From Chiloscyllium plagiosum (Eukaryota), in assembly GCF_004010195.1 (NCBI RefSeq), contig NC_057758.1, forward strand, positions 7,146,277 to 7,210,276: a stretch of 64,000 nucleotides of DNA. The letters are read 5' to 3'. The position numbers were made by a program, and so were the translations under genes. This document shows, one piece after another, positions 9,331 to 58,064 of the stretch (position 1 is its first letter; every line of letters starts with the position of its first letter). The notes under the pieces are model-generated. The model had not been told where the DNA came from. It worked only from the letters and a program-made list of their open reading frames with translations, and searched no databases.

Positions 9331-11596
9331 AATGTGGGAGCTTTGGAGCGCCATGCTGAGAAATGTAGGCCTCAGGTTCCATTATCAGCAGAGCACTGAA
9401 TTTAATCATTCCTCCAATGTGAGAAATCTGGAGACACAGACTGGGTAATTTACGTGCAGGCTCAGTCTCAGGCAAGCTTATACCTTGGCGTAATACTTCT
9501 TGGATTACCAATCTCATTCTTAACCAGAGAGAGTAAAAACCAGTAATCCTTGGAAGTAAATGTACTGGTCCTCTGTTTTGAAGTAGACCAGGTGACCCAG
9601 ATCAATCTGCCTCATCTGCCAGTTTTCCTGACATTTCCTTCTCGAACTGACCAAAACCCACAACGTAAGCAAACGTAAACTTAGGCTTCATCGTGTGCCT
9701 AGTGCTAATTGATCTGCTGGAATAATGTGGAACCAAGGTTCCTCACCGTCCCAGCGAGATGCATGTGCACACAGAGCAGGAGAGTCTCAGGCTCCATTCT
9801 TGGGCACATTCTTACACTGATCTCACACTCGATGATGTGGGATGAATCGAGAAGCACAGTGTGGGGAAACTTAGGCCGTGCATCCAGTCCCGAACCAAAT
9901 ATTTACTGCTAATCGAGCGCTAGTTGAAACCAACAGATCAGGAAGATGTAGCCCAGGTCGAATCTTGGCCGAGGACTGGATGAGCCAATTTCACTCCCAG
10001 TATCAGATCAGTGATTATCTACACAACCTATACATCCAGAGCTAAAGCTGTATCTTGGTCCTCGTCAGCCAATGTAATTCATGGTGGTGGATTAAATGAG
10101 CCATATCCCACTCCTACCCTGGCCATGATGAAGGTCCAGGTTGCATCTCAGGCCTAATGCTGAGTTAGTCAATTATCCAATATCTCCACAATGCTGGAAA
10201 ATTTCGGCTCAGCATGTGTCAAGGGGCGAGAGCTGGGTTAGACAATTTCACACCCAGTTATGGATTAAATGTGGGGAAATATAGGACAAATGGTATAATG
10301 GGGCTAGTGCTGAAGGAGCCAATCCAAGTGCAGGACTTATTGAGAAGCTCAGTTCAGGGAGATTAACACTCAGGCTTCATTTTCACTTGCTTCATCAATC
10401 AGCTGGGTCTTTGACTGAGGCCTCGGCACTGTCTAATTGGCATGGGGGGCCACGACTGTGCCACAGGTGAGTGCAGCCTCCCCATCCCTGAGAACCATCA
10501 TCCTTCCCTCCCAGCGAGTGGATCAGCAGGAGTCGCCGACGGCACTTCAGGGTCCCCAGATGCCCAACTCCAGCTACCTGCACGCCCAACCCTGACAACG
10601 ACTTGGATGTTTGGGAGCATGCTCTCCACTTGTGTCAACATCGTGCCCCATGCCATCACCTGGCTGCCCTCTTGCAACGTATCCTGAGAGAGTGGGGAGC
10701 TGAACAAAGCCAGGCAAAACCTCCACCAGTAGCTGCAGTGAACCATTACAGGCCTCCAGGGCCCGGATGCCAAACTGTGCTGCATCGTGACCTCACTGCG
10801 CTTGGCCTCCAGCAAGCTGCGAAGCGTCAAGCAGCCCCAGGAACATTCCATCCCACCCTCGGGCATTACACACTGTGAGGCCAAGTCAACGACTACTACA
10901 TCATCACACACTGGCTGGGCTGAGGTGTCAAGGATCTGGAGTGACTGAAGCCTGACGCCTAGCTCCTCGTCATCAGCTGGACTGATCACAAGGGATAAAG
11001 GTGGCCAAAAGGCCTGGGCTTAGCTCTTGGTTATTAATAAGAAGAATTTGCATTCATGAAAAGCCTAGAACCTCGAACTCATGACCAATAGGCCGAATTG
11101 GCAAGGGAGCCTTAAAGTTGAGATTTGAACTGGCCCAGAAAATCTCTTGAGGACTCAGACATGTAAAGTTTCTGTCTAAGATCGTCCCAGAGATCACACT
11201 CTTTGGAAGTCTGGAATAAATCGCGCTCACATGCAGTTTAGTTTAATTTTAGTCATCCCCTTCATTTATCAATAGCATCGCTGTGACAACATATCACTGA
11301 CACCAAGAGGCTAAGCTAATTAGTTTCGAAAGGGTGCAGAGGAGATTTACTGGGATATTGCCTGGTATAGGGGGAAGATCCTACGAAGAAAGGCTGAGGG
11401 ACTTGAGGCTGTTTTCGTATGAGAGTAAAAGGTTGAGAGATGACTTAATAGAGACATATAAGATAATAAGAGGGTTAGATAGGGAGGACAGAGAGAGCCT
11501 TTTACCAAGTATAGTGACTGCGAGCACGAGGGGACAATTGAGAGGTGACAGATATCGGACAGATGTCGGAGGTAGTTTCTTTACTCAGAGAGTAGT

Positions 11597-11808
11597 TGAA
11601 ACTTTATTGCTGGAACAGCACAGCAGGTCAGGCAGCATCCAGGGAACAGGAGATTCGACGTTTCGGGCACAGGCCCTTCTTCAGGAAAGAAGGGCCTGTG
11701 CCAGAAACGTCGAATCTCCTGTTCCCTGGATGCTGCCTGACCTGCTGTGCTGTTCCAGCAATTAAGTTTCAACTTTGATCTCCAGCATCTGCAGACCTCA
11801 CTTTCTCC
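11597..11808. mobile_element. Fold-back Penelope-terminal-repeat element (family A) with 16-bp TSD
   Basis: Long inverted repeat centred near 11686. TTACTCAGAGAGTAGT is duplicated at 11581-11596 and 11809-11824. Confidence 0.85.
11654..11687 (-). ncRNA. Putative minimal hammerhead ribozyme
   Basis: Minus strand UUC-CUGAAGA-A-GGGC-CUGU-GCCC-GAAA-C-GUC-GAA has the conserved core, stem II, a GUC site and a 3-bp stem I. Confidence 0.6.
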
Positions 11809-12816
11809 TTACTCAGAGAGTAGTAAGGGTATGGAATGCTTTGCCTGCAATTTAGTAAATTTGCCAACTTTAAGTACATTAAAGTCGTCATTCGACAAGC
11901 ATATGGTTGTACATGGAATAGTGTAGGTTAGATGGGCTTCAGATTGGTGTGACAGGTCGACGCTGTAATGTTCTATGGTTTTTGTTCTGTACCAACATTC
12001 TCCCCACGACCCTTCCTGGAAATAAGGACACACTTCCCGAAACGCACCTGTAAATTGTTAATATGGACATGCTTCACGAGACCCCGTCCCCGTAAATACT
12101 AGCAATTTCCCCGCCACAACCACTCATTCCTCGAGAACAGTCCTGTAAATATAGACACATACCCCGCTAACGACCTGTAAATGCCAACACACTCCCCTGG
12201 ACCCCTGCTGTAAATACTGACATACTCCCCGGGACCCAACCTGCAAATACAGGCTCTCTCACAGGAACGTCCTGTAAATACTGATACAGTGCCTGGGACC
12301 TGCCGTGTAAAACCTTGCCCACTCCCCAAGTCAACCCTGTAAATACCGTCACACTGCACAGGAACTCCACTCTTAGTACTGACACACTCCTCACACCACT
12401 CATGTAAATATAGACGCACTTCCTGGGACACGCCTGTAAATACTAACACACACCCCGAAGTGCAACTGTAAACAATGGCACACTCTCCTCCACATTCCTT
12501 TAAACGCCGAAACGCACTCTCTGGGCCCTCAATTTAAATTCTGCCACTTATGCGTGACACACGTGGAAATGCTGATGCATACCGCAGAACCTCCTGCAAG
12601 TACTGCCATATTGGCTGGGACGCACATTCACCCACCGTGTAAAGTCTAAGTTACTCCGCGGGACATCTCAGTAAATGCTGGCAATCTCCACGGGACTACA
12701 CTTGTGAATACTGGCACTATACCTGGGATCAGCCTGTAAGTACTAACTCACTCACCAGGACGCCCTGTGAATACTGACACACTGCCTGGGGAGACCCTGT
12801 AAATACTGACAAAATG

Positions 12817-13025
12817 GAGAAAGTGAGGACTGCAGATGCTGCAGATCAGAGATTAAAAATGTGTTGCTGGAAAAGCGCAGCAGGTCAGGCAGCATCAAAG
12901 GGGCAGGAGAATCGACGTTTCGGGCCTTCTTCAGGATTCTTGAAGAAGGGCATATGCCCGAAATGTTGATTCTCCTTTTCCTTTGATGCTGCCTGACCTG
13001 CTGCGCTTTTCCAGCAACACATTTT
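12817..13025. mobile_element. Fold-back Penelope-terminal-repeat element (family A) with 17-bp TSD
   Basis: Inverted repeat flanked by TAAATACTGACA(A/G)AATG at 12800-12816 and 13026-13042. Paralogous copy at 36024-36222. Confidence 0.85.
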
Positions 13026-21222: not shown

Positions 21223-22130
21223 TTAATGAGTGAATTTAATTGATTGGTTAATTTCGGTGAAGGGATATTTCAGCACATTCTTCAGCTGCTGTCTGAACTT
21301 AGTCTGGGTCACGACATAAATCGCGGTGTTTGTGCAGCAACTGAGGAGCTGCAGCATGAAGCCCAATTCCTGAACGAAAGGATGGGGAATCACAGGCGTA
21401 TCCAAGATCCAATACATTCGGTTCCATATAGAATACATCATTAACGTTCACCATAACAGGATGAAATTGGCCGAGATCACAAACAGTAAAATGATGGAAA
21501 CCTTTCGGTTTTTCATTTCAGTGTCAGACTGAGCGTCCCCATTGGTGTGAGCCCGGAGTCTCCTGCGGGCTCTGCTGGTGAATGAAATGTGTCGGACCGT
21601 AAACACATTGAGCAGCAGAATCAGGAGAAATGGGAGAGCCGGAGTTAGAATTTGGTGGAGGAACTCAGTTGTGACCCAGAAACGGGAGGAATAAGCGCCA
21701 TCTGTTGCAACACAAAACCAGGGGTCATTTCCCAGCCGATACCGAGCGGTGAGCAAAAAATACCAGAAAATGTTCTTTGAGCAGCTCAGCACAGCCACTG
21801 CTCCTAGAATCACAGCCGCCGTTTTCTCACGGGAATATCTACTTTTCAGCTTTTGGCAACAAATGGCCACAAACCGATCAAAGGTGAAAGTGACGGTGAA
21901 CCAGACAGAACAGTCAGTGGCTGCATAAAGCAGGACGGCGTGGATATTACACACAGGGATTTAGTACAGGAAATAAAACTTTGTCCGATAAGCAATGGGA
22001 ATGTGTCTCAATGTCAAGTCGAGGATAATAACCAGTAGATCCGCCGCTGCCATAGACCCCAAGTAACGTCTGACACATGGAGACAATCCACAATCTTTAT
22101 ATAGCAAGACATAGATCGTCACTATGTTAA
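21223..22130 (-). pseudogene. Class A GPCR (GPR139/GPR142-like) pseudogene, main coding exon
   Basis: Same 908-nt exon as 44436-45343, with MAAADLL, TFDRFVAIC and NTAIY motifs. In-frame TAA at 21961-21963 (TCC in the paralogue) and TGA at 21448-21450 (TCA in the paralogue). Acceptor AG at 22131-22132. Confidence 0.9.
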
Positions 22131-22735
22131 CTGTGAGGAAGGAAAAGAAATATATTATCCATCTGACAGGAGGCAAAGTCACCAGTTTGATTGAAGAGTC
22201 AGTGAGATTTTTCAAATGTGTCACGGCATTCAGTGATTAACTAAAATGATTGGAGCTGAAATAAAAATGGGAAGGTTTGTATTATGGACACAAATTTGTC
22301 ATAGAACACATGAAACCCTCCCTCCCCAAACACACAGAGGCACATCCATAAGAACAGGTGGTTTCCAGAACATTCCGATACACTTGATCACTCCAAAGCA
22401 AACCCAAGTCACTGGTTCGAGATTTTAATACAGAGGTTGAAAATGGTGCTGTCGTCAAGGATTCTCTCTCAGTTCCTTGAAGACAAACGGAGGTTGGAAA
22501 TTTCTGTCTTTCAGTCGAAATTGTATTTGAACCAAGTGAAAAAATGGAAATGCAATGAAAACGTATTCACATCTTTAACTGTCTGAGATGACTTTGGAAC
22601 AGAGTGTCCTTCTCTCTGGAACGGGATCTCTTCCCTTTGGGTCTTATCTTTTGTTCAATTCACTGACGTTTGGCCGTTCACAAATGATGTCAGAGATGGA
22701 ATGGTCCAGAGAATGTCGATTATAGAATGTACGGG

Positions 22736-22940
22736 GAGAAAGTGAGGACTGCAGATGCTGGAGACCAGAGTTGAAAAGTATGGTGCTGGAAAAGTGCAAC
22801 AGGCCAGGCAGCATCCGAGGAGCAGGAGAATCGACATTTCTGGCATCAGCCCTTCTTTAGACCTATGCCCTAAACGTCGATTCTCCTGCTCCTCGGATGC
22901 TGCCTGGCCTGCTGCGCTTTTCCAGCACCACACTTTTCTA
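22736..22940. mobile_element. Fold-back Penelope-terminal-repeat element (family A)
   Basis: Inverted repeat flanked by TATAGAATGTACGG (22721-22734) and TATAGAATATACGG (22942-22955). Confidence 0.8.
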
Positions 22941-22941
22941 C

Positions 22942-23184: not shown

Positions 23185-24560
23185 TACCGTCACGATTCCT
23201 CACCTTTTCCTCTGCTGCAACAATGACTAAATCGGTGCCACCTCATGATCTCAAAAGGAGGATGAACAGTTCTTCAACTTCGTAAACACATTCCACCCTG
23301 ACCTTAAGGTCACTTGGATCATCTCACTCACCTCACTCCCCTTCATGGACGTCTCCATCTTCATCTCTGGTGACTGACTAACCATGGACATCTACTGCAA
23401 TCCCACCGATTCCCAGATCTACCTGTACTACTTCTCCTTCCATTCTGTCTCCTGTAAAAACGTCATTCCTTATTCCCAAGTCCCCTGCCTCCTCCTCACA
23501 TGCTTCCAGGTTGACTAATTCCACGTTATATAATCTCAAATTGACTCATTCTTCCTTGACCACAAATACCTTTCCCACGTGGTCGACGATGCCATCCAGC
23601 GCATCTCCTCCATTTCCCATACCTCCCCACTTGAACACCGCCGGTCCCAACGAAATAAGGTCAGAGACCCGCAGTCTACATCTTCCAGCTCACCAACCAG
23701 CAGACACTTCACCTCATACTCAGCCACTTCCGCCACATACAAACCCCACTGCCAGAGATATATTTTCTCCGTGCAGCTATCAGTGTTCCCTAGTCAACAT
23801 TCGCTCCATGGCTCTCTTGTCAGATCCACGCCAATCCACCAGTCCACACCCCATTCCCGACACCTTCCCCTGCCAATGCAGGAAGTGCAAATCCTGCGCC
23901 ATCACCTCTCCCCTCACCTCTTTCCAAGGCCACAACGGAGCCTTCCACATCTGACAGAAATTTACCTGAACTTCAGCAAATCGCATTCACTGCGTAAGTT
24001 GCACCCAAAGTGGTTTCCTGTACATCCGGGCGACAGGATGCCATCTTCTGGATCCTTCCAGAGAAAATCTCTGGGACACACGCACTAACTAACTCCATCG
24101 CCCCTTGGCTGAACACTTTAAGTCTCCCTCCCACTCCATCAATGACATTGAGGTCCTGGGCCTCCTCCAATCACCATCCCCTAACCACCCGACGCCTGGA
24201 GGAAGAACTGCCTTGGGACCCTGCAACCACATGCGTTCAATGTGGATTCCAACAGATTCCTCATTTCACCTCCCCTGGATTTATCCTAGATCCAACCCGA
24301 CAAATCAGCACCGCCTTCCTAACTTATCGATCACCTTTCCCATCAATCTGCTCCATCCTCCTCTCCGATCTATCACCAAATCTCCCACATTCATCGTCTA
24401 TCGTATTCACATCTACCTTCTCCTCAACGCCACTCCCTTCCATTTATATACTTACACCACGACCCGCAAGCACTAATCCTGATTAAGGGCTTATGCCAGG
24501 AACATCAATTCTGCTGCTCCTCGGATGCCGCCTGACCTGCTTTGCTGTTCCATCGTCATA
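23185..24560 (+). mobile_element. Penelope-like retroelement, 5'-truncated (RT C-terminus, GIY-YIG, terminal repeat), decayed
   Basis: LPFMDVSI..MDIYCNPTDSQIYL..CKNVIPYSQ and TFPCQCRKCKSCA motifs, ending in a CTGATTAAGGGCTTATGCC terminal repeat. Confidence 0.85.
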
Positions 24561-30795: not shown

Positions 30796-31830
30796 TTTAT
30801 GATGAAGGCTTATGCCTAAGACGCTAAGAATTGTTCTCCTTGGATACTGCCTGACCTCCCGTGCTTTTCCAGAGTCATAGTTTTCGACTCGGACTCTCCA
30901 GCAAATGCAGACTGCACTTTGTCCATTGCTGAGAGGTGAGTCGAAGAGTGTGGTGCTGGAAGAGCACTGCTGGTTGGCAGCATCTGAAGAGCAGAAGAAT
31001 CGATGTTTCAAGCACAAGCTCTTCAACAAGAATTAGGCTTGAGGCCCAAGGGGGCTGAGAGATAAGTACGAGGGTTGTGGGGTTGAGCAGAAGATAGCTA
31101 GAAATGTGAAAGATAGATGACAGTGGGTTGAAGGTGATCAGTTGTCGAGAAGAGTAGAGCTTATATGTGAGAAGAAAGAGAGACGGGGGGGCAGTACTTC
31201 GATAGGGCATTGCTGAGTTAGAGGGTTGGATTTCGGACAATATGATGAGTGGAGAAATGAGAAAGCTGATGAAATCCACATTGATTACATATGGTTGAAG
31301 AGTTTTAAGATGGAAGATGAGGCGTTCTTCCACCAGGTCTCAGGTGGTTCGGGTTTGGTGGTGGAGGAGGCCCAGCACATGTGTGCCTTTGGCAGAGTGG
31401 GAGGGACTTCAAAGTGTTTGACCACAGGGTGGTGGGGTTATTTCATACGTGTGTTCCCGAGATGTTCACTGGAAAATTCCACGTTTTGCTGTCCTGTCTC
31501 CTGAATGTAGAGGTCACCACATCGAGAGAGACGGGCATAGTAGATGACATGTGCGAAAGTATCGGTGAATCTCTGTCAGATGCGTGACAGACACTTTGGA
31601 GCCGTGGGCAGAACTCTGGGGTACGGGTAACACGTCTTGCGGTTGAAGGGGGAGGTGCTGGGAGTGGAGGGTGTGTTAATGGGTGGGTGGCTCGGAACTG
31701 ACAAGGGGGTCAGGGAGAGAACGCAGATACGTTTGGGCAGGGAGACATATACCTGATGGTATGGTCTGTACGTAAGTGGCGGAAATGACGGAGGATAACG
31801 CGCTGCATCCGCAGGTTGATTGGATGGAAG
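30796..31830 (-). mobile_element. Penelope-like element (GIY-YIG C-terminus) with inverted terminal repeats at 30796-31030
   Basis: MEERLIFHLKTLQPYVINVDFISF matches the EEERLIFRLGTLQPQGMNLDF C-terminus at about 38850. Family A-like repeats occur in both orientations. Confidence 0.8.
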
Positions 31831-31849: not shown

Positions 31850-32515
31850 TGGGGAAGTTAGTTGTGATATCTTAGAGACATTCCATATCACAGTAGAAAA
31901 GGTGTTGGACTTTCTACAATGTATGAAGATGGTTAAATCTCACGGGCCTTACTAGATAAAGACAAGAACAGTGCAAGAGACGACAGAAGCATTTGCTGGG
32001 TCCCTGGCTGATAATTCAGATCATAATTAACCACAGGAGCCATCACGGAAGACTAGTGGATAGCAAATGTTGTGCACTTATTCAAGAAGGATTGGGAAAA
32101 AAAGCTGAAAATATAGACGACTAAGCTTATTATCTGTGGTAGGTAAGTTAATTGAGAAGATTCACAAGAATAGGATATACATGCATTTGCTGAAAAATGT
32201 ATTGCTGGAAAAGCGCAGCAAGTCCGGCAGCATCCATCGAGGAGAAGAATCGACATTTCGGGCTTATGCCCGAAACGTCTTTTCTCCTCCTCCTCGGATG
32301 CTGCCTGACCAGCTGCGCTTTTCCAGAAACACATTTTTCAGCTCTGATCTCCAGTATCTGCAGTCCTCACTTTCTCCAATACATGCATTTGTAATGAAAG
32401 GGCTTGATTAGGAACAGTAAACATGGCTTTGTGCATGAAAGTTCAAGCCTAAAGTTTTTATTATTAAATTTACTTCAATGAATTGAGCTGGAAGCTTGAC
32501 GAGGGTTGGGCGGTA
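31850..32515 (+). mobile_element. CR1 LINE ORF2 fragment
   Basis: KSHGP, W.IANVVHLFKK and KHGFV motifs. Confidence 0.7.
32190..32378. mobile_element. Fold-back Penelope-terminal-repeat element (family A) with 13-bp TSD
   Basis: ATACATGCATTTG at 32177-32189 and 32379-32391, with inverted arms between. Confidence 0.85.
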
Positions 32516-34560
32516 GAACATCGAACATACAACAATACAGCTTAGCACAGGCCCTTAGGCCCTCAATGTTGCGGCGACCTATGAACTATTCTCACTGTGC
32601 AGTGGCACAGTGGTTAGCACTGCTGCCTCACAGCACCAGTGACACGGGTTCAATTCCCGCCTCAGGCGACTGATGGTGTGGAGTTTGCATGTTCTCCGCG
32701 TATCTGCGTGGGTTTCTTCCAGGTGCTCCGGTTTTCTCCCACAGTCCAAAGATGTGCAGGTCAGGTGAATTGGCCATGCTAAATTGTCCGTAGTGTTCGG
32801 TCAGGGGTAAATGTAGGGGTATGGTTGGGTTTCGCTTTGGCGGGACGGTGTGGACTTGTTGGGCTGAAGGGCCTGTTTTCACACTGTAAGTAATCTAATC
32901 TAATCTAAAAACCATCCATGTGTTATCCAAGGATTGTTTAAATCTCCGTAATGTGGCTGAGTTAACTGAATTAGCAGGTAGGGTTTCCACTCGCTTACCA
33001 CTCTCGAAGTAAAGAACCTACCTCTGACATCTGTCTTAAATCTATAACGCCTCAATTTGCAGTTATGACCCGTCGAACAAGCTGACGTCATCAACCTAGG
33101 AAAAAAGACGTTCACAGTATACCCTATCTAATCGTCTGCTCATCTTGTATGTCTCTAATAAATCCCCTGCTCGCCTTCTTCTTTCCAATGAGAACAAACC
33201 CAAGTCGCTCAGCTGTTCTTCATTAGAACTTCCATCCAGACCAGGCAACATCCTGTTAAATCTTCTCTGCACCTTTTTCGATGCTTTCCATATCCTTCCT
33301 GAAATTTGGCAACGAGAACTGTCCACAGTATTCCAAGTGCGGCCGCACTAGCGTTTTCAATATTTCCGGCATGATATTGCGGCTCCAGAACTCAATACAT
33401 CTACCAATGAAAGCGAACACACCATATGCCTTCTTAATAGCACTAACACCCTGGGTGGCAACTTTCAGGGATCTATGTACAGGGACTCCAAGATCCCTCT
33501 GCACATCCATACTACAAAGGATCTTTCCATTGACCCAGTATTCTGCCTTCCTGTTCTTCTTCCCAACGAGAATCACTTCACACTTAGCTGCATTGAACTC
33601 CATTTGCCACCTCTCAGCCCAAATCTGCAGTTTATCGAAGTCCCCCTGCAATCTGTAACATTGTTCCGAACTGTCTACTACGCCAAGGACTTTATTGTCA
33701 GCTGCAAATTTACTGATCCATCCACCTATGCCTGCGTCTAAGTCTTTTATAAAAATGACAAACAGCAGCGGTCCCAAAACAGAACCTTGTGGCACAATAT
33801 TAGTTACTGGACTCCAGGTTGAATATGTTCTATCAACCACCACTCGCTGCCTTCTTTCAGAAAGCCAGTTTCTTATCCAAACTGCTAAATCACCCTCAGT
33901 CTCATGCCTCCACATTTTGTCCAAAAGCATACCATATGGAATCTTATCAAATGCCTGACTGAACTTCATGCATGCCACGTCAATAGCCTACCCTCATCTA
34001 CACGCTGTGTCACCTACACAAAAAACTCATTGAGCTTTGTGAGACACCGTCTGCCCTTGACGAAACCATGTTGAATATTTGAAACCAAATTGTTGCTTGC
34101 TGGATTGTTAGAAATCCTATCTCTTATAATCATTTACAAAACCTTTCCTACAAAAGAATTAGGGCTCTCAGGTCTATAATTACCTGGGTTATCTCTACTG
34201 CCCTTCTTGAAGAAGGACATAACATTTGTCCCCTAGTCCTCTGGTACGAAACCAGTAGAAAATGACGACTCAAGTATCAAAGTCAAAGGCTCTGCAATCT
34301 CCTCCCTAGCTTCACAGAGAATCCTCGAATACATCCCATCCGGCCCAGGGGACTTATCTACTTTCACTCCTTCTAATATTTATACCATCTCTTTGAAACT
34401 AACCTCGATCCTTTCTAGTCTAATATTTCTGTCTCATTCTTCCCCTCTACAATATTCTCCTTTTCCTGAATGAACACCAATGAGAAATGTTCGTTTAGCA
34501 CCTGTCCGATCTCAAGAGGGCCCACACTCAACTTCCCACTTCTGTCTTTGACTGGCCCTA
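32516..34560 (-). mobile_element. CR1 LINE ORF2 (RT), relatively well preserved, runs into gap
   Basis: 240-aa ORF 33256-33978 contains FSQAFDKIP, VPQGSVLGPLLFVIFIKDLD, KFAADNK, WQMEFNAAKC, QRDLGV and LVRPHLEYC. Confidence 0.93.
32598..32906 (+). mobile_element. tRNA-derived SINE (HE1-like), well preserved, inserted in CR1 tail
   Basis: A box TGGCACAGTGG, B box GGTTCAATTCC and a (TAATC)n tail. Confidence 0.92.
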
Positions 34561-36023: not shown

Positions 36024-36222
36024 GAGAAAGTGAGGACTGCAGATGCTGGAGATCAGAGCTTAAAAATGTGTTGCTGGAAAGCGCAGAAGGTCAGGCAGCA
36101 TCAAAGGAACCGGAGAATCGACGTTTCGGCCCTTCTTCAAAGAAGGGCTTATGCCCGAAACGTCGATTCTCCTGCTCCTTTGATGCTGCCTGTCCTGCTG
36201 CGCTTTTCCAGCAACACATTTT
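36024..36222. mobile_element. Fold-back Penelope-terminal-repeat element (family A) with perfect 17-bp TSD
   Basis: TAAATACTGACAAAATG at 36007-36023 and 36223-36239. Confidence 0.88.
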
Positions 36223-38620: not shown

Positions 38621-39460
38621 TCTATATTGGGGAGACAGGCCGCCTACTTGCGGAGCGCTCCTCTATATTGGGGAGACAGGCCGCCTACTTGCGGAGCGAT
38701 TCAGAGAGCACCTCTGGGCCACCCGGACGAACCAACCCAATCACCCTGTAGCACAGCATTTCAACTCCCCCTCCCACCCCAGCGAGGATATGCAGGTCAT
38801 TGGACTCATCCACCGCCAAACCACAACAACGCGACGGTCGGAGGAGGAGCGTCTTATCTTCCGACTGGGAACACTCCAACCACAGGGGATGAACTTGGAC
38901 TTCACCAGTTTCTTCATCCCCCCTCCCCCCACCTTGTCTCAGCCGAATCCCTCCAGCCCGGCACCGCCTTCCTGACCTGCAGTCTTCTTCTTGACCTCTC
39001 CGCCTCCATCCTACTCCGACCTATCACCCTCACCTTGACCTCTTTCCACCTATCACATTCCCAACGCCCCTCCTCCAAGTCCCTCCTCCCTACCTTTTAT
39101 CTTCTCCTGCTGAACACTCTCTGCTCATTCCTGAAGAAGGGCATGTGCCCGAAACGACGAATCTTCTGTTCCCTAGATGCTGCCTGACCTGCTGTGCAGC
39201 AATAAAGTTTCAGCTTTGATCTCCAGCGTCTGCAGACCTCACTTTCTCCTCGAAGATTTCAACCTACTGCGAATCCTCTTACAAGGATGCCTTCCTTGAA
39301 GAAGCTCTCTGTGCTGAACACTCTCTGCTCATTCCTGAAGAAGGGCATGTGCCCGAAACGTCGAATCTTCTGTTCCCTAGATGCTGCCTGACCTGCTGTG
39401 CTGTTCCAGCAATAAAGTTTCAGCTTTGATCTCCAGCGTCTGCAGACCTCACTTTCTCCT
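38621..39460 (+). mobile_element. Young Penelope-like insertion: GIY-YIG 3' fragment plus tandem terminal repeats, 8-bp TSD
   Basis: LYIGETGRLLAERFREH..PVAQHFN..MQVIGL..RRSEEERLIFRLGTLQPQGMNLDF. CGATCTCC at 38613-38620 and 39461-39468. The site is empty in unit 1 (about 15395). Confidence 0.9.
39331..39366 (+). ncRNA. Putative minimal type I hammerhead ribozyme (intact core)
   Basis: AUUC-CUGAAGA-A-GGGC-AUGU-GCCC-GAAA-C-GUC-GAAU, with stem I AUUC/GAAU, stem II GGGC/GCCC and predicted cut after 39362. Confidence 0.72.
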
Positions 39461-44435: not shown

Positions 44436-45343
44436 TTAATGAGTGAATTTACTTGATTGGTTAATTTGGGTGAAGGGGTATTTCAGCACATTCTTCAGCT
44501 GCTGTCTGAACTTAGTCTGGGTCACGGCATAAATCGCGGTGTTTGTGCAGCAACTGAGGAGCTGCAGCATGAAGCCCAATTCCTGAATGAAAGGATGGAG
44601 TAGCACAGGAGTATCCACAATCCAATATATTCGGCTCCATATAGAATACATCATTAACGTTGACCATAACAGGATGAAATTGGCCGAGATCACAAACAAT
44701 AAAATGATGGAAATCTTTCGGTTTTTCATTTCAGTGTCAGACTGAGCATCCCCATTGATGTGAGCCAGGAGTCTCCTGCGGGCTCTGCTGGTGAATAAAA
44801 TATATCTGACAGTAAATACATTGAGCAGCAGAATCAGGAGAAATGGGAGAGCCGGGGTGAGAATTTGGTGGAGGAACTCATTTGTGACCCAGAAACTGGA
44901 GGAATGAGCGCCGTCTATTGCAACACAAAACCAGGGGTTATTTCCCAGCCGATACCGAGCGGTGAGCAAAAAATACCAGAAAATGTTCTTTGAGCAGCTC
45001 AGCACGGTCACTGCTCCCAGAACCACAGCCGCCGTTTTCTCACAACAATATTTACATTTCAGCTTTTGGCAACAAATGGCCACAAACCGATCAAAGGTGA
45101 AAGTGACGGTGAACCAGACAGAACAGTCAGTGGCTGCATAAAGCAGGACGGCGTGGACATTACACACATGGATGGAGTACAGGAAATAAAACTTTGTCCG
45201 ATAAGCAATGGGAATGTGTCTCAATATCAGGTCGAGGATAATAACCAGTAGATCCGCCGCTGCCATCGACCCCAAGTAACGTCTGACACATGGAGACAAT
45301 CCACAATCTTTATATAGCAAGACATAGTTCGTCACTATGTTAA
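44436..45343 (-). CDS. Class A (rhodopsin-like) orphan GPCR, GPR139/GPR142-like; last coding exon (end of TM1 to C-terminus), first exon not located
   Basis: Open frame of 301 codons plus stop after the acceptor TTTTCTTTTCTCACAG|TTAAC (phase 1). Motifs: VNIVT, YLGSMAAADLL, C..AATDCSVWFTVTFTFDRFVAIC, ECL2 Cys, PALPFLLILLLN, LFVISANFILLW and SCCTNTAIYAVTQTKFR. Confidence 0.9.
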
Positions 45344-45934
45344 CTGTGAGAAAAGAAAAGAAATATATTATCCATCTGCCTGGAGGCAAAGTCACCAGTT
45401 TGATTGAAGAGACAGTGAGATTTTTCAAATGTGTCACTGCATTCAGTGATTAACTAAAATAATTGGAGCTGAAATAACAAATGGGAAAGTCTGTATTATG
45501 GACAAAAATGTGTCATAGAACGCATGAAACCCTCTCTCCCCAAACGCACAGAGGCACATCCATAAGAACAGGTGGTCTCCAGAACATTCCCACACACTCG
45601 ATCACTCCAGAGCAGACCCAAGTCACTGGTTCCAGATCCGAATACAGAGTTTATAAACGGTGCTGTCCTCAAGGATTCTCTCTCAGTTCCTTGAAGACAA
45701 CCGGAGGTTGGAAATTTCTGTCTTTAAGTCTAAACTGTATTTGATCCAAGTGAAGAAATGGAAATGCAATGAAAACTTATTCACATCGTTAACTGTCTGA
45801 GATGACTTTGGAACAGAGTCTCCTTCTCTGTGGAACGGGATCTCTTCCCTCTGGATCTTATCTTTTGTTCAATTCATTGACGTTTGGCCGTTCACAAATA
45901 ATGTCAGAGATGGAATGGCCCAGAGAATGTACGG

Positions 45935-46140
45935 GGAGTAAGTGAGGACTGCAGATGCTGGAGACCAGAGTTGAAAAGTGTGGTGCTGGAAAAGCGAAGC
46001 AGGCCAGGAAGCATCTGAGAAGCAGGAGAATCGACATTTCGGGCATAAGCCCTTGTTCAGGCTTATACCCGAAACGTCGATTCTACTGCTCCTCGGATGC
46101 TGCCTGGCCTGCTGCGCTTTTCCAGCACCACACTTTTCTA
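45935..46140. mobile_element. Fold-back Penelope-terminal-repeat element (family A)
   Basis: Paralogue of 22736-22940, flanked by AGAATGTACGG. Confidence 0.8.
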
Positions 46141-46384
46141 CTGTAGAATGTACGGTACAGAATGATCTGGGGATGTGTATTGTAGAATGTTGGGTACAGA
46201 ATGTTTCATAACATTTCAGTTATGGATGAGCGGATAGAGAATGTTCTGGGTCATGTCAGTTATAGACTGTTGGATACAGAATGTTCCTGGGAATATCGGT
46301 TATAGAATGTGGGGGACAGAATGTTCCAGCAATGGCATTTATAAATGTTGGGTCGAGAACATTCCTTGAAATCTTCAGTGGATA

Positions 46385-47760
46385 CACCGTCACGATTCCT
46401 CACCTTTTCCTCTGCTGCATCAATGACTAAATCGGTGCAACCTTATGACCCCAAGTGGAGGATGAATAGTTCTTCAACTTCATAAACACATTCCACCCTG
46501 ACCTTAAGGTCACTTGGATCATTTCACTCACCTCACTCCCCTTCATGGACCTCTCCATCTTCATCTCTGGTGACTGACTAACCACGGACATTTACTGCAA
46601 GTCCACCAATTCCCAGAGATACCTGTACGACATCTCCTTCCACACTGTCTCCTGTAAAAACGCTATTCCTTATTCCTAATTCCTCAGCCTCCTCCACACA
46701 TGCTTCCAGGTTGACGAATTCAACGTTATATAATCTCAAATTGACTCCTTCTTCCTTGACGACAAATACCTTTCCCACGTGGTCGACGATGCCATCCAGC
46801 GCATCTCCTCCATTTCCCATACCTCCCCACTTGAACACCACCGCTCCAAACGAAATAAGGACAGAAACCCGCAGTCTACACCTTCCAGCTCACCGACCAA
46901 CAGATACTTCGCCTCATACTCAGCCACTTCCGCTACCTGCAAACCCCACTGCCAGAGATATATTTCCTCCATGCAGCTATCAGTGTTCCCTCGAGAACAT
47001 TCCCTCCATGAATCTCTTGTCAGATCCACGCCAATCCACCAGTCCACACCCCATTCCCGACACCTTCCCCTGTCAACGCAGGAAGTGAAAAACCTGCGCC
47101 ATCACCTCTCCCCTCACCTCTGTCCAAGGCCACAAAGATTCCTTCCACATCGGACAGAAATTTACCTGAACTTCAGCAAATCGCATTCTCTGCATAAGTT
47201 GCACACAAAGTGGTCTCCTGTACATCCGGGAGACATGATGCCATCTTCTGGATCCTTTCAGAGAAAGTCTTTGGAACACCCGCACGAACTAACTCCATCG
47301 TCCAGTAGCTGAACACTTCAACTATCCCTCCCACTCCATCAAGGAAAATTGAGGTTCTGGGCCTCCTCCAATCACCAACCCCTAACCACCCGATGCCTGG
47401 AGGAAGAACTGCCTTAGGACCTGCAACCACATACGTTCAATGTGGATTTCAACAGATTCCTCATTTCACCTCCCCTTGGATTTATCCTAGATCCAACCCT
47501 ACAAATCAGCACCGCCCTCCTAACTTATCGATCACCTTTCCCATCTATCTGCTCCATCCTCCTCTCCAACCTGTCATCAAAACTCCCGCATTCATCGCCT
47601 ATCGTATTCACAGCTACCTTCTCCCCAACGCCACTCCCTCCCATTTATACACTAACACCACGACCCGCAAGCACTAATCCTGATTAAGGGCTTATGCCAG
47701 AAACGTCAATTCTGCTGCTCCTCGGATGCAGCCTGACCTGCTTTGCTGTTCCATCGTCAT
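46385..47760 (+). mobile_element. Penelope-like retroelement remnant
   Basis: Paralogue of 23185-24560 (LPFMDL, CKNAIPYS, TFPCQRRK). Confidence 0.85.
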
Positions 47761-48769: not shown

Positions 48770-48846
48770 GATAGAATAAGGCCATTCAGCTATTCGAGGC
48801 AGTTTCTCAGCAACGTGAGCAGATCTTTTAATCTCTCATGACTGTT

Positions 48847-49824
48847 CAAGGTTTGGGAGAAGATTTGTAGCTCGGGTGCTCGTTGTTGTGGTTCTGTTCG
48901 CCGAGCTGGGAATTTGTCTTGCAAACCTTTCGTCCCATGTCCAGGTGACATCCTCAGAGCTTGGGGGCCTCCTGTGAAGCGCTTCTGTGCTGTTTCTTCC
49001 GGCATTTATAGTGGCCTGTCTCTGACGCTTCCCGTTGTCAGTTCCAGCTGTCCGCTGTCGTGGCCGGTATATTGGGTCCTGGTCGATGAGTTTGTTGATA
49101 GAGTCTGTGGGTGAGGGCCATGCCTCTGGGAATTCCCTGGCTGTTCTCTGTTTGGCTTGCCTGATAATGGTAGTGTTGTCCCAGTCGAATTCATGTTGCT
49201 TGTCATCTGCGTGTGTGGCTACTAAGGATAGCTGGTCGTGTCGTTTCGTGGCTAGTTGGTGTTCATGGATACGGATTGTTAGCTGTCTTCCTGTTTGTCT
49301 TAAGTAGTGTTTTATTCAGTCCTTGTATGGGATTTTGTACACTACATTTGTTTTGCTCATGTTGGGTATCGGGTCCTTCGTTCTGGTGAGTTGTTGTCTG
49401 AGAGTGGCTGTTGGTTTGTGTGCTGTTATGGACATAGGACAAACAGGGAGACAGCTAACAATCCGTATCCATGAACACCAACTAGCCACGAAACGACACG
49501 ACCAACTACCCTTAGTAGCCACACACACAGATGACAAGCAACATGAATTCGACTGGGACAACACTACCATTATAGGGCAAGCCAAACAGAGAACAGCCAG
49601 GGAATTCCTAGAGGCATGGCCCTCATCCACAGACTCTATCAACAAACACATCGACCTGGACCCAATACACGGCCACGACAGCGGACAGCTGGAACTGACA
49701 ACCGGAAGCGGCAGAGACAGGCCACTATAAATGCCGGAAGAAACAGCACAGAAGCGCTTCACAGGAGGCTCCCAAGCACTGAGGATGTCACATAGATCGG
49801 GGAAGAAACGTTTGCAAGACACAT
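48847..49824. mobile_element. Penelope-like insertion (family C): two inverted GIY-YIG 3' arms, 13-bp TSD
   Basis: Minus arm KDPIPNMSKTNVVYKIP..QTGRQL and plus arm IGQTGRQLTIRIHEH..FDWDNTTII..AREFLEAW, joined at about 49430. TCTCATGACTGTT at 48834-48846 and 49825-49837. The site is empty in unit 1 (about 25399). Confidence 0.9.
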
Positions 49825-49879
49825 TCTCATGACTGTTACACATGAAATGGAAGGTAACATTCATCCATTCAAAACAGCC

Positions 49880-52800
49880 ATAAACAAATACGTAGTGGAC
49901 TGATTAGTCAGGCGGGTGCAGGGATAAATTTGGTTTAAATCAGTCTTGATCAGTTTGACACAAATTAACAACTGCAGTGACACATTGACCCATGCTGGGG
50001 CCTCACCTATTTGCAAACGATATCATGGTTTCAAATCATGCAACAAACCTGCTCTAACTAAATTTGAAATGACACTAAGCGAGACAGGAACTGAAATTAT
50101 CAAGAGGAGGTAGGGAATTTCTAATTGGATAAGCAATGGACAACAATCTGACAGCTGGAATATAACGTGGGTAACCATGAATCTGTGAATGTTTCAGGCA
50201 GAATAAAACATTGTATACTACATAAACAGGGAGAGATTACAGGAGTCAATGATACAGTGTGTACTGGAAAATTCACTCTGACACTTTCAGACATCGGAAG
50301 TGTTGCTTCATCTCCATGATGGTCTGTTCACCGATGTTCCTGGGACCCCATTGCTCTCAGTACACACGTGGTAGTTTGATGTGGTTGTTTGACGACTGGG
50401 ACACAACTTTATTTCCTCTTGAAAAATAAGACAGGGTATGTGATTGAGCTGTTACACTCATATCATTTTGGAACGAGTCATTGTCATTCCCTCGGTTTGA
50501 CAATAGTTCCAGAAAAGGCGAGACCATGTCCACAAATTAACTTTATAATTAAGGGCAATTTTGATGGCATTAGGCAGGAAAATATAAAAGTAAGTCACAG
50601 AAAAACTGTTTGAGTTTGAAGGACGCCTGGAAGTGGGCATCTTTCAAAAGTGAGATAATTAAAGTCCAGGGACAACGTGTTCCTGTTAGTGTGAAGAGGA
50701 ATGCTCGCAGGAGTAGGGAATAGCACATGACAAGAGATATTATGCTTTGGTCAATGAAAAAGAAGGAGACATATGTCTGTTGTAGGAAGCGAGGATCAAA
50801 GGAATCCCTTGAGCGTCCAAGGTGTTGGAGTACGCTTACGGCGGAAATCAGAAGGGCAAACAGGGAACATGTGATCACTTTGGCTGATAAGGTTAAAGGG
50901 AATGAAAAAAAATCCTGCAAGTATATTAGCGCAAAAGACAAACTAAGGAGGGAATAGTGCTGCTTACAAATCAAACTGCTATCTATGTGTGTTTCCACAG
51001 GAGATGAATTAGGTTTATTACGTTTATTGTCACATGCACTCATATGAGAACAGTGAAGAGCTTACAAGTCACGACATGCGACACAATTTTACATAAAGAG
51101 GTAAACCCCTCCAGCTACAGAATCTTAGTGAAAAGTGGGAAAATAAAAACACCAAAGTTAAAATGTAAAACATTGCAGCCCTTCATTTAACAGTGGAAAT
51201 ATAGAAAGACAGTGACCATTTCAACAACACAATCCATAAGCGCTTGGCCATGCTGGGTACGCACTCCTCATAAGGACTGAAACTCCCAGACTCCTCTGCC
51301 TTGCAGCCTGCTCCTGTTCTATGAGTGAGATCATACAAAAATATATCCCGCATCAATATTTACTGTGGAGAAAAAGATGGAAGTGAGGCAACTCAGGGAA
51401 ATAAATCCATGCAGTGATGTTTCGAATTGAGACCAAATTACAGAAGAGGAAGTGGTGAAGTTCTTCAAATACATAACCGTAAATTAATACCCAGGGCATG
51501 TTCAAGCGTATCCCAGGTCATTGTGGGAAGCTGGGGAAGAAATTGTGGAGCCCCTAGCGGAGATATTCGTATTATCCTCAGAGTTGTGATGAAGGGTCCC
51601 TGGTCCCGAAACATTATCTCTGTATTCTCTGCACAGATGTTGCCAGACCAGTTGAAATTTACCAGATAGGTTTTGTCTTGTTTCTGATGAAGCATTTGCA
51701 GTTAGTTCAGATTTTATTTGTATCATTGAGAACCACGGGTGACGTGATGAATGGCTCAAAGACAGATAATGTTGGAATATTAATTTGAAAACGGTAGCAA
51801 GGAAAAGGCAGGGCGCTACAGCGCGGTGTGTTTGATGTCAGGGGTGTGTAATTATTTGGAACAGATTCTCAGAAGCAGGATTTACATGCAATCGTAATGG
51901 CAAGTACTGATTTTGGAGTTATCACGGCTTTGTGTATGATAAAATGTGTCTCGCAAACTTGTTTGAAACTTTTCAAGACGTGACCAAGAACATCGATAAA
52001 GGGAAAGCAGCATACGTTGTCAACGTGGACGTTAGTGAGGCCAAGAAAGTTCTGCATGGTAGTCTGGTTAATAAGGTTAGATCGCAGGGGATCAGGGAGA
52101 GCTAGCCAATTCGATTCAAAAGTTAGCTTGACAGCAGGCGACAGAGTGTGGTTGGAGAGATTTGTGGTCCTAACTGATAAACTGCGACCGGCGGTGTGCC
52201 ACAGGACCAGGCAGCTGCTGTTAGTGATCTTTATAAATTATTTGGATGAGAATATAGGTACCATGGATAGTACGTTTGTAGACAAAACCAAAATTTGTGT
52301 TCTAGTGGAAGGTGAGAGGGTCATTTCAAATGACAATGAGATCTTGTTCAACTGGTTCAGTGGGCCATATAATGGCAGATGGAGCTTTATGCAGATAAAT
52401 GCGAGGTATTGCAGCCTGATGGACAAATGCGGGCAGATTTTAATAGTCAATTGGAGGGCTGTAGGGAGTGTTGTGGAGCAGAGACACCTGGGGTGGAGTA
52501 AGAAAGTTGCTTGAAATTAGACCAGCAGGTAGATAGGGATGTGAATAAGGGGTTAGAAATTCTTACCTTCATCGGTCAGAGCATTGGGTATAGGAATTGG
52601 GACATCATGTTATTGCTATACAAGAGAATGATTAATCAACTTTGGGAGTATTGAGTACAGTTCATGTTACCCTTCTATCGGAAGGATGTTATGAACTGGA
52701 AAGAGTACAACATATATAAAATGATTTCACGGAGTCTGGAAGTTTTGCGACATAAGGATAGGTTGAGATTTTGTTCCATTTGCCTAGGAAGTTGAGGGAT

Positions 52801-57748: not shown

Positions 57749-57846
57749 AATTACATTCCTGAAGAAGGGCCTGTACCCGAAACGTCGAATCTCCTGTTCC
57801 CTGGATGCTGCCTGACCTGCTGTGCTGTTCCAGCAATAAAGTTTCA
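57749..57846 (+). mobile_element. 98-bp hammerhead-bearing Penelope terminal-repeat insertion with 13-bp TSD
   Basis: ACTCATTCCCAGG at 57736-57748 and 57847-57859. AUUC-CUGAAGA-AGGGCCUGUACCC-GAAA-C-GUC-GAAU at 57755-57790. Confidence 0.85.
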
Positions 57847-58064
57847 ACTCATTCCCAGGGACCCCTTGTAAATACCAACACTCTCCCCAGGACACCCTGC
57901 ATATATCAACACTCTTCATCGGGACCTCCCTTAAAATATTGACACACTCCCTGGTATCCTCCTGTTAATAATGACACACTCTCCGGGATGCTCGCTGTAA
58001 ATGCAGACACTCTCCCTGGGAAACCCCTGTAAATACCGACACACTCCACAAGACTCCCCTGGAA

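What the first reader, a model, noticed from the sequence alone, without database searches (positions are those of the whole stretch)
11597..11808. ~200-bp fold-back elements made of two inverted ribozyme-bearing termini, each with its own TSD
Seen: four independent insertion sites, at 11597-11808 (16-bp TSD), 12817-13025/36024-36222 (17-bp TSD), 22736-22940/45935-46140 (~14-bp TSD) and 32190-32378 (13-bp TSD). Each consists only of a Penelope-type terminal repeat fused to a truncated inverted copy, and the inversion point falls every time at or beside the CTGAAGA..GAAAC hammerhead motif. They look like MITEs, but variable-length TSDs suggest target-primed reverse transcription. Inference: ribozyme-delimited short RNAs or a template switch at the ribozyme repeatedly generate non-coding hairpin retroelements, which could be a retrozyme-like class and a dsRNA source.
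Basis: partly seen in the sequence, partly recalled or inferred. Interest (0 to 1): 0.75.

Follow-up and report, generated by a model that had tools for sequence, protein, structure and literature searches.

The report
Minimal mirror-image Penelope retrotransposon insertions
These 200-base DNA hairpins are real and very common, but they are the shortest insertions of a known jumping-gene class (Penelope), not a new ribozyme element; each was likely written afresh when both cut DNA strands copied the element's RNA up to a predicted start point, which would explain the puzzling inverted ends of these elements.

Summary
The six fold-backs are real: four sites, two of them duplicated, with 13-17 bp target-site duplications. 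Empty sites exist for two. They are termini of an RT + GIY-YIG Penelope-like family. A 1.52-Mb sample of the same genome held 45 short head-to-head pairs, against 1 tail-to-tail and 2 tandem. 44 of 45 carry the 34-nt tail on one arm only, and 41 junctions are distinct. 70 of 90 arm ends lie at -11..+13 of the hammerhead core (its C3 = +1), and only 4 lie further upstream. The predicted cleavage site (+28/+29) is about 30 nt downstream and may explain 10 of 90 ends. So the hinge is not random, but it is mostly not a ribozyme cut. It likely marks the RNA 5' end, since solo copies stop there too. Best reading: two short cDNAs primed from the two nicks and joined at microhomology, made anew at each insertion. 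The layout (inverted terminus, tail, TSD) is published; I did not find the fixed hinge in print. Not a retrozyme or MITE. This scan reported the same thing several times on other DNA.

The parts
11581..11596 (+). left TSD copy (16 bp), inside a LINE-type host repeat
   Evidence: empty-site copies of the host repeat; loose ends
11597..11686 (-). tail-less arm, inverted Penelope-like terminus, 5' end at about -1
11657..11684 (-). minimal hammerhead core (C3 at 11684, stem II, predicted cleavage after 11657); the only unmutated core among the 12 arms; activity untested
   Evidence: pattern; pairing counts on alignment A1
11687..11808 (+). tail-bearing arm from +4 to +125 (lacks the start of the hammerhead core)
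11775..11808 (+). 34-nt tail, present on one arm only
   Evidence: two 3'-end peaks at about +90/91 and +124/125; one-tail rule
11809..11824 (+). right TSD copy
12817..13025 (.). fold-back: tail arm 12817-12935 (-, with a stem II deletion), tail-less arm 12936-13025 (+); TSD 12800-12816/13026-13042
36024..36222 (.). duplicate of the 12817 insertion with a shorter hinge; tail arm 36024-36139 (-), tail-less arm 36140-36222 (+); TSD 36007-36023/36223-36239
22735..22941 (.). fold-back: tail arm 22735-22860 (-), tail-less arm from 22864 (+); TSD 22721-22734/22942-22955
45935..46144 (.). duplicate of the 22736 insertion, same hinge; tail arm 45935-46059 (-), tail-less arm from 46060 (+); TSD 45924-45934/46145-46155
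32190..32378 (.). fold-back: tail-less arm 32190-32258 (-), tail arm 32260-32378 (+); TSD 32177-32189/32379-32391
57755..57849 (+). solo tail-less stub of the same family, starting at -3, with an apparent 13-bp TSD and no inverted arm
   Evidence: read by eye
39108..39459 (+). partial tandem of two termini; the first runs past the tail into the 5' part of the ORF (39250-39312)
23382..24552 (+). longer 5'-truncated decayed copy of the parent family (RT thumb/endonuclease region, 3' UTR, tail-less terminus); duplicate at about 46582-47753

Best explanation
These are ORF-less minimal insertions of an endonuclease-positive Penelope-like retrotransposon family, each likely made anew at the target by two target-primed reverse transcription events, one from each nicked strand. 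Shown: the arms are the family's terminus; exactly one arm has the 34-nt tail; TSDs are 12-20 bp; both arms end in a narrow zone at the 5' edge of the hammerhead; junctions are diverse and rich in microhomology. Inferred: the RT/endonuclease nicks both strands about 15 bp apart. It primes internally at two sites near the 5' end of the RNA (about +91, no tail; about +125, with tail). Both cDNAs run off at the RNA 5' end (about -8..-2, a predicted transcription start with an initiator-like TCATTC and a conserved TTATCT about 30 nt upstream) or stop somewhat earlier. The two cDNA 3' ends anneal through 1-3 nt of complementarity (TTC/GAA repeats at -2..+9) and are filled in head to head. The template is mostly uncleaved RNA; hammerhead cleavage may set about one end in nine. 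Later deletions can trim the centre of the palindrome. The hairpins are by-products, not a self-propagating family.
For: Parent family: RT motifs in neighbouring copies; Pfam RVT_1 E 9.6e-08; GIY-YIG E 1.6e-4, just under the curated cut-off; the same termini flank ORF-bearing units and partial tandems. In 160 stretches taken at fixed round coordinates (1,516,907 non-N bases), 45 of 48 close arm pairs are head-to-head; 44 of 45 have one tail; 33 of 45 have a TSD vs 2 of 138 controls. Arm ends: 4 at -130..-12, 70 at -11..+13, 6 at +14..+28, 10 at +29..+37, 0 beyond, of 90. The tail-less arm reaches further 5' in 28 elements, the tail arm in 14, 2 ambiguous (p = 0.044; 15 vs 6 among the 22 youngest). 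In those 28, neither arm can be a copy of the other. 41 distinct junctions; the three recurring ones sit on microhomology and two of them recur across different subfamily variants. Microhomology of 2 nt or more in 13 of 27 spacer-less junctions vs 18% expected (p = 3e-4; 13 of 45 overall, p = 0.045). Solo TSD-flanked copies start at the same -4..-2 edge, as do 7 of 17 resolvable copies that run on into the ORF, so the boundary does not depend on inversion. Loose ends of reads and contigs pile up at the same edge in 3 runs. Literature: in vitro, an anole PLE cuts and extends both strands, starts RT internally at two sites that bracket the tail, is predicted to be a dimer, and mainly uses uncleaved RNA (PMC11167929).
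Against: No transcription start was observed: one search lists no place where many molecules begin, and the promoter motifs are read by eye against a recalled consensus. The D. virilis promoter is internal, TATA-less and lies upstream of an intron (PMC2377424), so it is not a direct precedent. No untemplated G (cap signature) was evident before -3 in the junctions read by eye. The two arms nearly always share subfamily variants (discordance 57/637 at diagnostic columns vs 94/1956 at other columns and 29% when shuffled). That fits one template or snap-back as well as two RNAs from one source. Centres change after insertion: the duplicates 12817 and 36024 differ by about 9 nt at the hinge, so the 28:14 asymmetry is not purely the insertion state. 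One junction with a stem II deletion recurs in 5 of 29 query-selected loci (L014, L016, L017, L025, L026), which a small propagating subfamily could also give; it was seen in 0 of 45 sampled elements. The in vitro data are from a different PLE clade.
Confidence: 0.6

Rival explanations
1. One primed cDNA folds back on itself at the TTC/GAA repeats near its 3' end (or an antisense RNA self-primes, as proposed in PMC3846280) and is copied into the second arm. Asymmetric central deletions then scramble the hinge.
For: Arms share rare variants. The recurring junctions are what a 3-nt snap-back would give. A hinge change after insertion is seen in one of two duplicate pairs. The tail arm is the longer one in 14 of 44.
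Against: Snap-back on the tail-bearing cDNA predicts that the tail arm always reaches further 5'; the opposite holds in 28 vs 14, and 15 vs 6 among the youngest. It does not by itself explain why the tail-less arm ends at a second fixed site that also ends solo copies.
Confidence: 0.2
2. The fold-backs are a self-propagating non-autonomous family (retrozyme- or SINE-like) that is transcribed and reinserted as a unit by the Penelope protein.
For: About 30 per Mb in the sample. One identical junction in 5 of 29 query-selected loci. Reads cross fold-back junctions in one RNA run.
Against: 41 distinct junctions among 45, and recurring junctions cross subfamily variants. The same layout extends to TSD-flanked inserts of 630, 1052 and 1778 bp. 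Solo and tandem copies share the boundary. No two direct-orientation ribozymes that could cut out a unit; the core is buried in duplex.
Confidence: 0.08
3. Hammerhead self-cleavage defines the short RNA, or triggers the template switch, and so sets the hinge.
For: The core and stem II pattern are well kept (stem II paired in 96.7% of cells, on copies pre-selected for the core). A minor cluster of 10 of 90 arm ends lies at +29..+37, against 6 at +14..+28 (p = 0.037).
Against: 80 of 90 arm ends lie 5' of the predicted cut and keep sequence that a cleaved product lacks. Helix I complementarity itself creates microhomology at +29..+32. No covariation above shuffles. Ribozyme-dead RNA inserts normally in vitro (PMC11167929).
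Confidence: 0.06
4. The boundary is not an RNA end but an RT stop or switch point set by the folded hammerhead/protein complex, or the end point of collapse of longer inverted insertions.
For: No start site was observed. Palindrome centres can change after insertion.
Against: An RT moving 3' to 5' on the RNA would stall at the 3' side of the structure (about +32), not at its 5' edge (inference). Long copies pass the site freely (39 of 238 arms reach beyond -100). Solo copies with no palindrome share the boundary.
Confidence: 0.05
5. DNA-transposon MITE with terminal inverted repeats.
For: Short, ORF-less, inverted-repeat shape with a TSD.
Against: TSD length varies from 12 to 20 bp, the ends are asymmetric by a 34-nt tail, and the sequence is the terminus of an RT-encoding element.
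Confidence: 0.01

Closest known systems
Endonuclease-positive Penelope-like element insertions with an inverted 5'-truncated copy, a 30-40 bp tail and a TSD (PMC3846280, Pen2a_Av; PMC8557442, Fig. 2 legend)
   Same: Head-to-head inverted terminus, tail on one arm only, variable TSD, partial tandems, parent ORF with RT and C-terminal GIY-YIG.
   Different: Here the commonest form has no ORF sequence at all, occurs at about 30 per Mb, and both arms stop at a fixed edge beside the hammerhead. I did not find this in the passages read.
Poseidon of Anolis carolinensis, in vitro (PMC11167929)
   Same: Two 3' ends bracketing a tail; terminus equals the segment just 5' of or into the ORF; hammerhead in the terminus; both strands cut and extended.
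   Different: Different clade (the family here has the CX2-5CxxC linker of Neptune/Nematis). That paper did not analyse inverted junctions or a 5' boundary in the parts read.
Minimal hammerheads of metazoan PLEs (PMC4209133)
   Same: Type I core, unpaired base before stem II, 4-bp helix I, palindromic 2-bp helix III that needs a dimer. That paper also saw pairs of motifs 100-700 bp apart on opposite strands in Schistosoma.
   Different: Stem II here is 4 bp; activity was not tested; most fold-back arms have lost part of the motif.
Non-LTR retrozymes (bioRxiv 10.64898/2026.07.22.740005)
   Same: Non-coding, PLE-terminus-derived, hammerhead-related.
   Different: Retrozymes are direct tandem repeats with a complete hammerhead in at least two consecutive units. 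These are inverted, mostly with broken cores.
L1 twin priming (recalled; no paper read on it)
   Same: Two primings from the two nicks, an inverted junction with microhomology, a TSD.
   Different: L1 arms copy different segments of one RNA. Here both arms copy the same segment, so two RNAs or two passes are needed.

Membership tests
EN+ Penelope-like element insertion | Parent ORF with RT and C-terminal GIY-YIG endonuclease, bounded by the same terminus | tested here: met
   RT motifs; RVT_1 E 9.6e-08; GIY-YIG E 1.6e-4, 22.3 bits vs cut-off 22.6; units of terminus-ORF-terminus. No gap-free full-length ORF was found; assembly gaps cover the middle of most long units.
EN+ Penelope-like element insertion | Inverted 5'-truncated copy adjacent at the 5' end (head-to-head) | tested here: met
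   45 of 48 close pairs
EN+ Penelope-like element insertion | 30-40 bp tail on one end only | tested here: met
   34 nt; 44 of 45 have one tail
EN+ Penelope-like element insertion | Variable-length TSD | tested here: met
   12-20 bp in 33 of 45; control 2 of 138; empty sites
EN+ Penelope-like element insertion | Partial tandems forming pseudo-LTRs | tested here: met
   window 39108-39459, L095, L164, L142
Neptune/Nematis-type PLE | CX2-5CxxC linker before the endonuclease and CCHH-type cysteines within GIY-YIG (PMC8557442) | tested here: met
Neptune/Nematis-type PLE | RT phylogeny within the clade | not tested
   no tree with reference PLEs was built
Minimal type I hammerhead | Conserved core and helices I-III | tested here: met
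   87% of cells paired vs 11-52% when slid; stem II 96.7%; one helix I pair is a mismatch in 36 of 46; no covariation above shuffles (47 copies chosen for having the core). Rfam gathering: 0 hits.
Minimal type I hammerhead | Self-cleavage | not testable with these tools
   needs an in vitro assay
Non-LTR retrozyme | Direct tandem units, each with a complete hammerhead | tested here: not met
   arms inverted; 1 of 12 window arms has an intact core
Non-LTR retrozyme | Circular unit-length RNA | not testable with these tools
   no suitable RNA data
MITE | Fixed short TSD and symmetric terminal inverted repeats matching a transposase family | tested here: not met
   TSD 12-20 bp; ends asymmetric by the tail; sequence belongs to an RT element

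The most novel reading that the evidence does not exclude
Penelope-like elements integrate by obligatory double priming: a dimer loads two RNAs and copies from both nicks at two internal start sites. Every inverted terminus in this class would then be the second cDNA. The roughly 100,000 stubs in this genome would be a fossil map of the element's transcription start (major edge at -8..-2) and of ribozyme-cleaved RNA (minor edge at +29), and a large reservoir of intronic dsRNA hairpins.
Probability: 0.35. Interest if true: 0.62.

Novelty: new variant of a known kind. Interest (0 to 1): 0.36.

Why it matters
How Penelope-like elements produce their tandem and inverted ends is stated to be unresolved (PMC8557442, PMC11167929). 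A very large set of minimal insertions with a fixed hinge, a one-tail rule and measurable microhomology gives concrete predictions that an existing in vitro system can test: a start site at -8..-2, both nicks primed, and ribozyme activity mostly dispensable. In practice these elements look like MITEs to annotation tools and may be an abundant source of dsRNA hairpins. They are not a new class of ribozyme element.

Tried and rejected
Rfam scan of the window: 0 matches. Run search: no listed holder is on record as RNA, which is no evidence either way. X20 laid 0 reads (no test). X19 (about 2% of the run read) gave no start-site pile-up, and its reads on the window elements nearly all run on into other sequence, so they come from other copies (435 of 438 only partly on it). 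No listed contig spans a window hinge, so the junctions were not independently confirmed from reads. A-to-I editing could not be separated from subfamily differences. Assembly artefact was rejected on TSDs, empty sites and duplicated copies. A splice acceptor at the boundary (as in D. virilis, PMC4209133) was rejected: there is no AG before -3 in long copies. A cap-derived G was not evident by eye. An apparent recurrent 'G + CCGAAAC' start proved to be a stem II deletion variant enriched by my query. The arm-discordance test for two different template RNAs was inconclusive because of CpG decay and query bias. TSD composition is only mildly AT-rich (65% vs 59%), and I found no clear symmetric target motif in 29 sites. 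The first pairing count used a mis-registered structure and is superseded. No intact full-length ORF was recovered from 20 candidate loci. Literature searches listed no paper on ORF-less fold-back PLE stubs with a fixed hinge or on twin priming in PLEs. The library lacks most subscription journals and repeat databases, and supplements of the papers were not opened (those of PMC11167929 bear on genomic insertion ends).

Full report
Observation. The six elements are present as described. Their TSDs are 16, 17, 17, 14, 11 (perfect part) and 13 bp. Two pairs lie in segmental duplicates, which gives four insertion events. For 11597 and 32190 the host is a dispersed repeat whose other copies carry the target once (11 of 23 and 14 of 25 hits span the empty site), so these TSDs are true duplications. 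The other two sites lie in tandem repeats, where the empty-site test is uninformative. The 212-nt element folds into one long hairpin (z = -22.5). Positions below are counted from C3 of the CTGA hammerhead core (+1). The predicted cut is then after +28, helix I begins at -3, the tail-less end is near +91 and the tail end near +125.

What the arms are. The first search of the own genome had 2877 candidates, of which 40 were scored, all matching on both strands. The same terminus bounds longer copies. L095 has a truncated inverted arm, a partial tandem and a TSD. L164 has terminus, ORF start, endonuclease and terminus. Several units of 3-4 kb are interrupted by assembly gaps. Neighbouring copies carry RT motifs, a Pfam RVT_1 match and a GIY-YIG match just under the curated cut-off. 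The C-x4-C-xx-C linker points to the Neptune/Nematis type as defined in PMC8557442 (passages); no tree was built. The fold-backs are therefore pieces of an endonuclease-positive Penelope-like family. The organism was not determined by any tool; earlier scan notes call it a shark.

Census. I took 160 stretches of 10 kb at fixed round coordinates on the 37 largest contigs (1,516,907 non-N bases). Of 283 BLAST hits, 238 passed the filters (40 nt or longer, core alignable); the rest were dropped. Of 48 adjacent pairs with anchors within 260 nt, 45 are head-to-head, 1 tail-to-tail and 2 tandem. 44 of 45 have exactly one tail. 33 of 45 have a TSD of 12-20 bp (25 of them 14-16 bp), against 2 of 138 random intervals. 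That is about 30 per Mb, or roughly 100,000 in the genome if the sample is typical. The two batches differed (36 in 0.95 Mb, 9 in 0.57 Mb), so this is an order of magnitude only. Pairs with one arm under 40 nt are visible among the unpaired arms and were not counted. Longer TSD-flanked head-to-head inserts of 630, 1052 and 1778 bp show that the short form is one end of a continuum.

The hinge. Of 90 arm ends, 4 lie at -130..-12, 70 at -11..+13, 6 at +14..+28, 10 at +29..+37 and none beyond (uniform null p about 1e-41). But the sharp edge is at the 5' side of helix I, about 30 nt upstream of the predicted cut, and 80 of 90 arms keep sequence that a cleaved 3' product would not contain. The minor cluster just after the cut is weak (10 vs 6, p = 0.037) and could also come from helix I microhomology. 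The edge is not a property of inversion. Solo copies with TSDs start at -4..-2 (for example L046, L051, L072, L073, L096). Among 30 termini found in loci chosen for running on into the ORF, 8 had no anchor and 5 abut assembly gaps; 7 of the remaining 17 start at -5..-1. Loose ends pile up at -3/-2 in three of four runs laid. These reflect many dispersed genomic copies, not RNA starts. Long copies of all subfamilies share TTATCT about 30 nt upstream and YYATTC at the edge, which resembles an initiator (consensus recalled). A promoter with TATA and Inr-like motifs in the terminus was proposed for rotifer elements (PMC3846280, passages), whereas the D. virilis promoter is internal and TATA-less (PMC2377424, passages). 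No start site was observed here.

De novo or propagating. There are 41 distinct junctions among 45. The recurring ones (3, 2 and 2 copies) lie on 2-3 nt microhomologies, and two of the three join different subfamily variants. Microhomology of 2 nt or more occurs in 13 of 27 spacer-less junctions against 18% by simulation; 18 junctions have untemplated or unassigned spacers of 1-26 nt. Against this reading, one junction recurs in 5 of the 29 loci selected by my query. Their arms differ at diagnostic sites and the junction was absent from the sample.

One cDNA or two. The tail arm holds sequence the other lacks, so under snap-back it must be the template and should reach further 5'. The tail-less arm reaches further in 28, the tail arm in 14, and 2 are ambiguous (p = 0.044); among the 22 youngest it is 15 vs 6. 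This favours two independent primings and matches the in vitro behaviour of an anole PLE: both strands cut and extended, two internal start sites that define the tail, a predicted dimer, and uncleaved RNA as the main substrate (PMC11167929, parts 1-2 of 4 read). Two results weaken it. Arms share subfamily variants far more than shuffled pairs (8.9% vs 29% discordance; background 4.8%). And the duplicates 12817 and 36024 differ by about 9 nt at the hinge, so centres can change after insertion. Self-priming on an antisense template, proposed in PMC3846280, remains the main rival.

Ribozyme and RNA. The motif fits the minimal type I hammerhead of PMC4209133 (parts 1-2 of 4 read). In 47 of the 72 copies listed and the window, chosen for having the core, stem II is paired in 96.7% of cells, with no covariation beyond shuffles. 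Only one of the twelve window arms has an intact core, and in a fold-back transcript it is predicted to be inside the long duplex. In the single-cell polyA run X19, 13 reads with 11 starts cross one opposite-strand joint in the hinge zone. So some fold-back copies are probably transcribed as passengers, though library template switching is not excluded. Editing and small RNAs were not testable.

Comparison. An inverted 5'-truncated copy, a 30-40 bp tail at one end and a TSD are the published structure of these insertions (PMC8557442 and PMC3846280, passages; PMC8969392, passages). Opposite-strand pairs of minimal hammerheads 100-700 bp apart were noted in PMC4209133. Non-LTR retrozymes are direct tandems with complete ribozymes (bioRxiv 10.64898/2026.07.22.740005, part 1 of 5 and passages); the fold-backs fail that test, and they fail the MITE test. 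Seven searches listed no description of the fixed hinge or of double priming in PLEs, within the library's limits. Earlier agents of this scan reached the same reading on this and other genomes (190 notes match the words, 8 shown). I had recorded my reading before seeing them, and they are not independent evidence.

Verdict. Real, abundant, and explained as the minimal form of a known insertion type. The useful residue is mechanistic: a fixed 5' edge and an arm asymmetry that make the unsettled Penelope insertion cycle testable. Interest 0.36; new variant of a known kind.

Noticed in passing
L142:969-2400 (G000:C8, about 24157500-24159000): Tandem array of five hammerhead-bearing units of about 190-225 bp, each starting near -3..-17 and running a variable distance into the ORF; it appears to meet the operational tandem definition of a non-LTR retrozyme, unlike the fold-backs.
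   Followed up: partly
window 11594 (run X19): 29 reads end at the tail-less end (+91) with a loose poly(T) run, 9 nt past an AATAAA found only in one subfamily; this could be polyadenylation at the first RT start site or a single host locus.
   Followed up: no
window 12817-13025 vs 36024-36222: Duplicates of one insertion differ by about 9 nt at the hinge, and both carry a stem II deletion on the tail arm; a similar deletion recurs in about 12 of the 30 query-selected loci.
   Followed up: partly
window 48836-49903: A second, unrelated Penelope-like family with its own hammerhead-like motif at 49779 and a 400-bp head-to-head inversion (48907-49305 vs 49829-49432, 93%).
   Followed up: no
window 44436-45449 (-) and 21448-21960 (-): Rhodopsin-family GPCR reading frames (7tm_1, E 2e-13 for the first) in a segmentally duplicated cluster.
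   Followed up: no
window 33256-33987 (-): LINE reverse-transcriptase remnant (RVT_1, E 7.7e-14); LINE-type repeats host the 11597 and 32190 insertions.
   Followed up: partly
window 30836-31721: Older copy of the family in a tail-to-tail arrangement with a second terminus, the rare orientation.
   Followed up: no
29 sampled TSDs: The TSD base at the far left is C in 19 of 29 when the tail is on the right; it may be a nick preference or boundary ambiguity.
   Followed up: no
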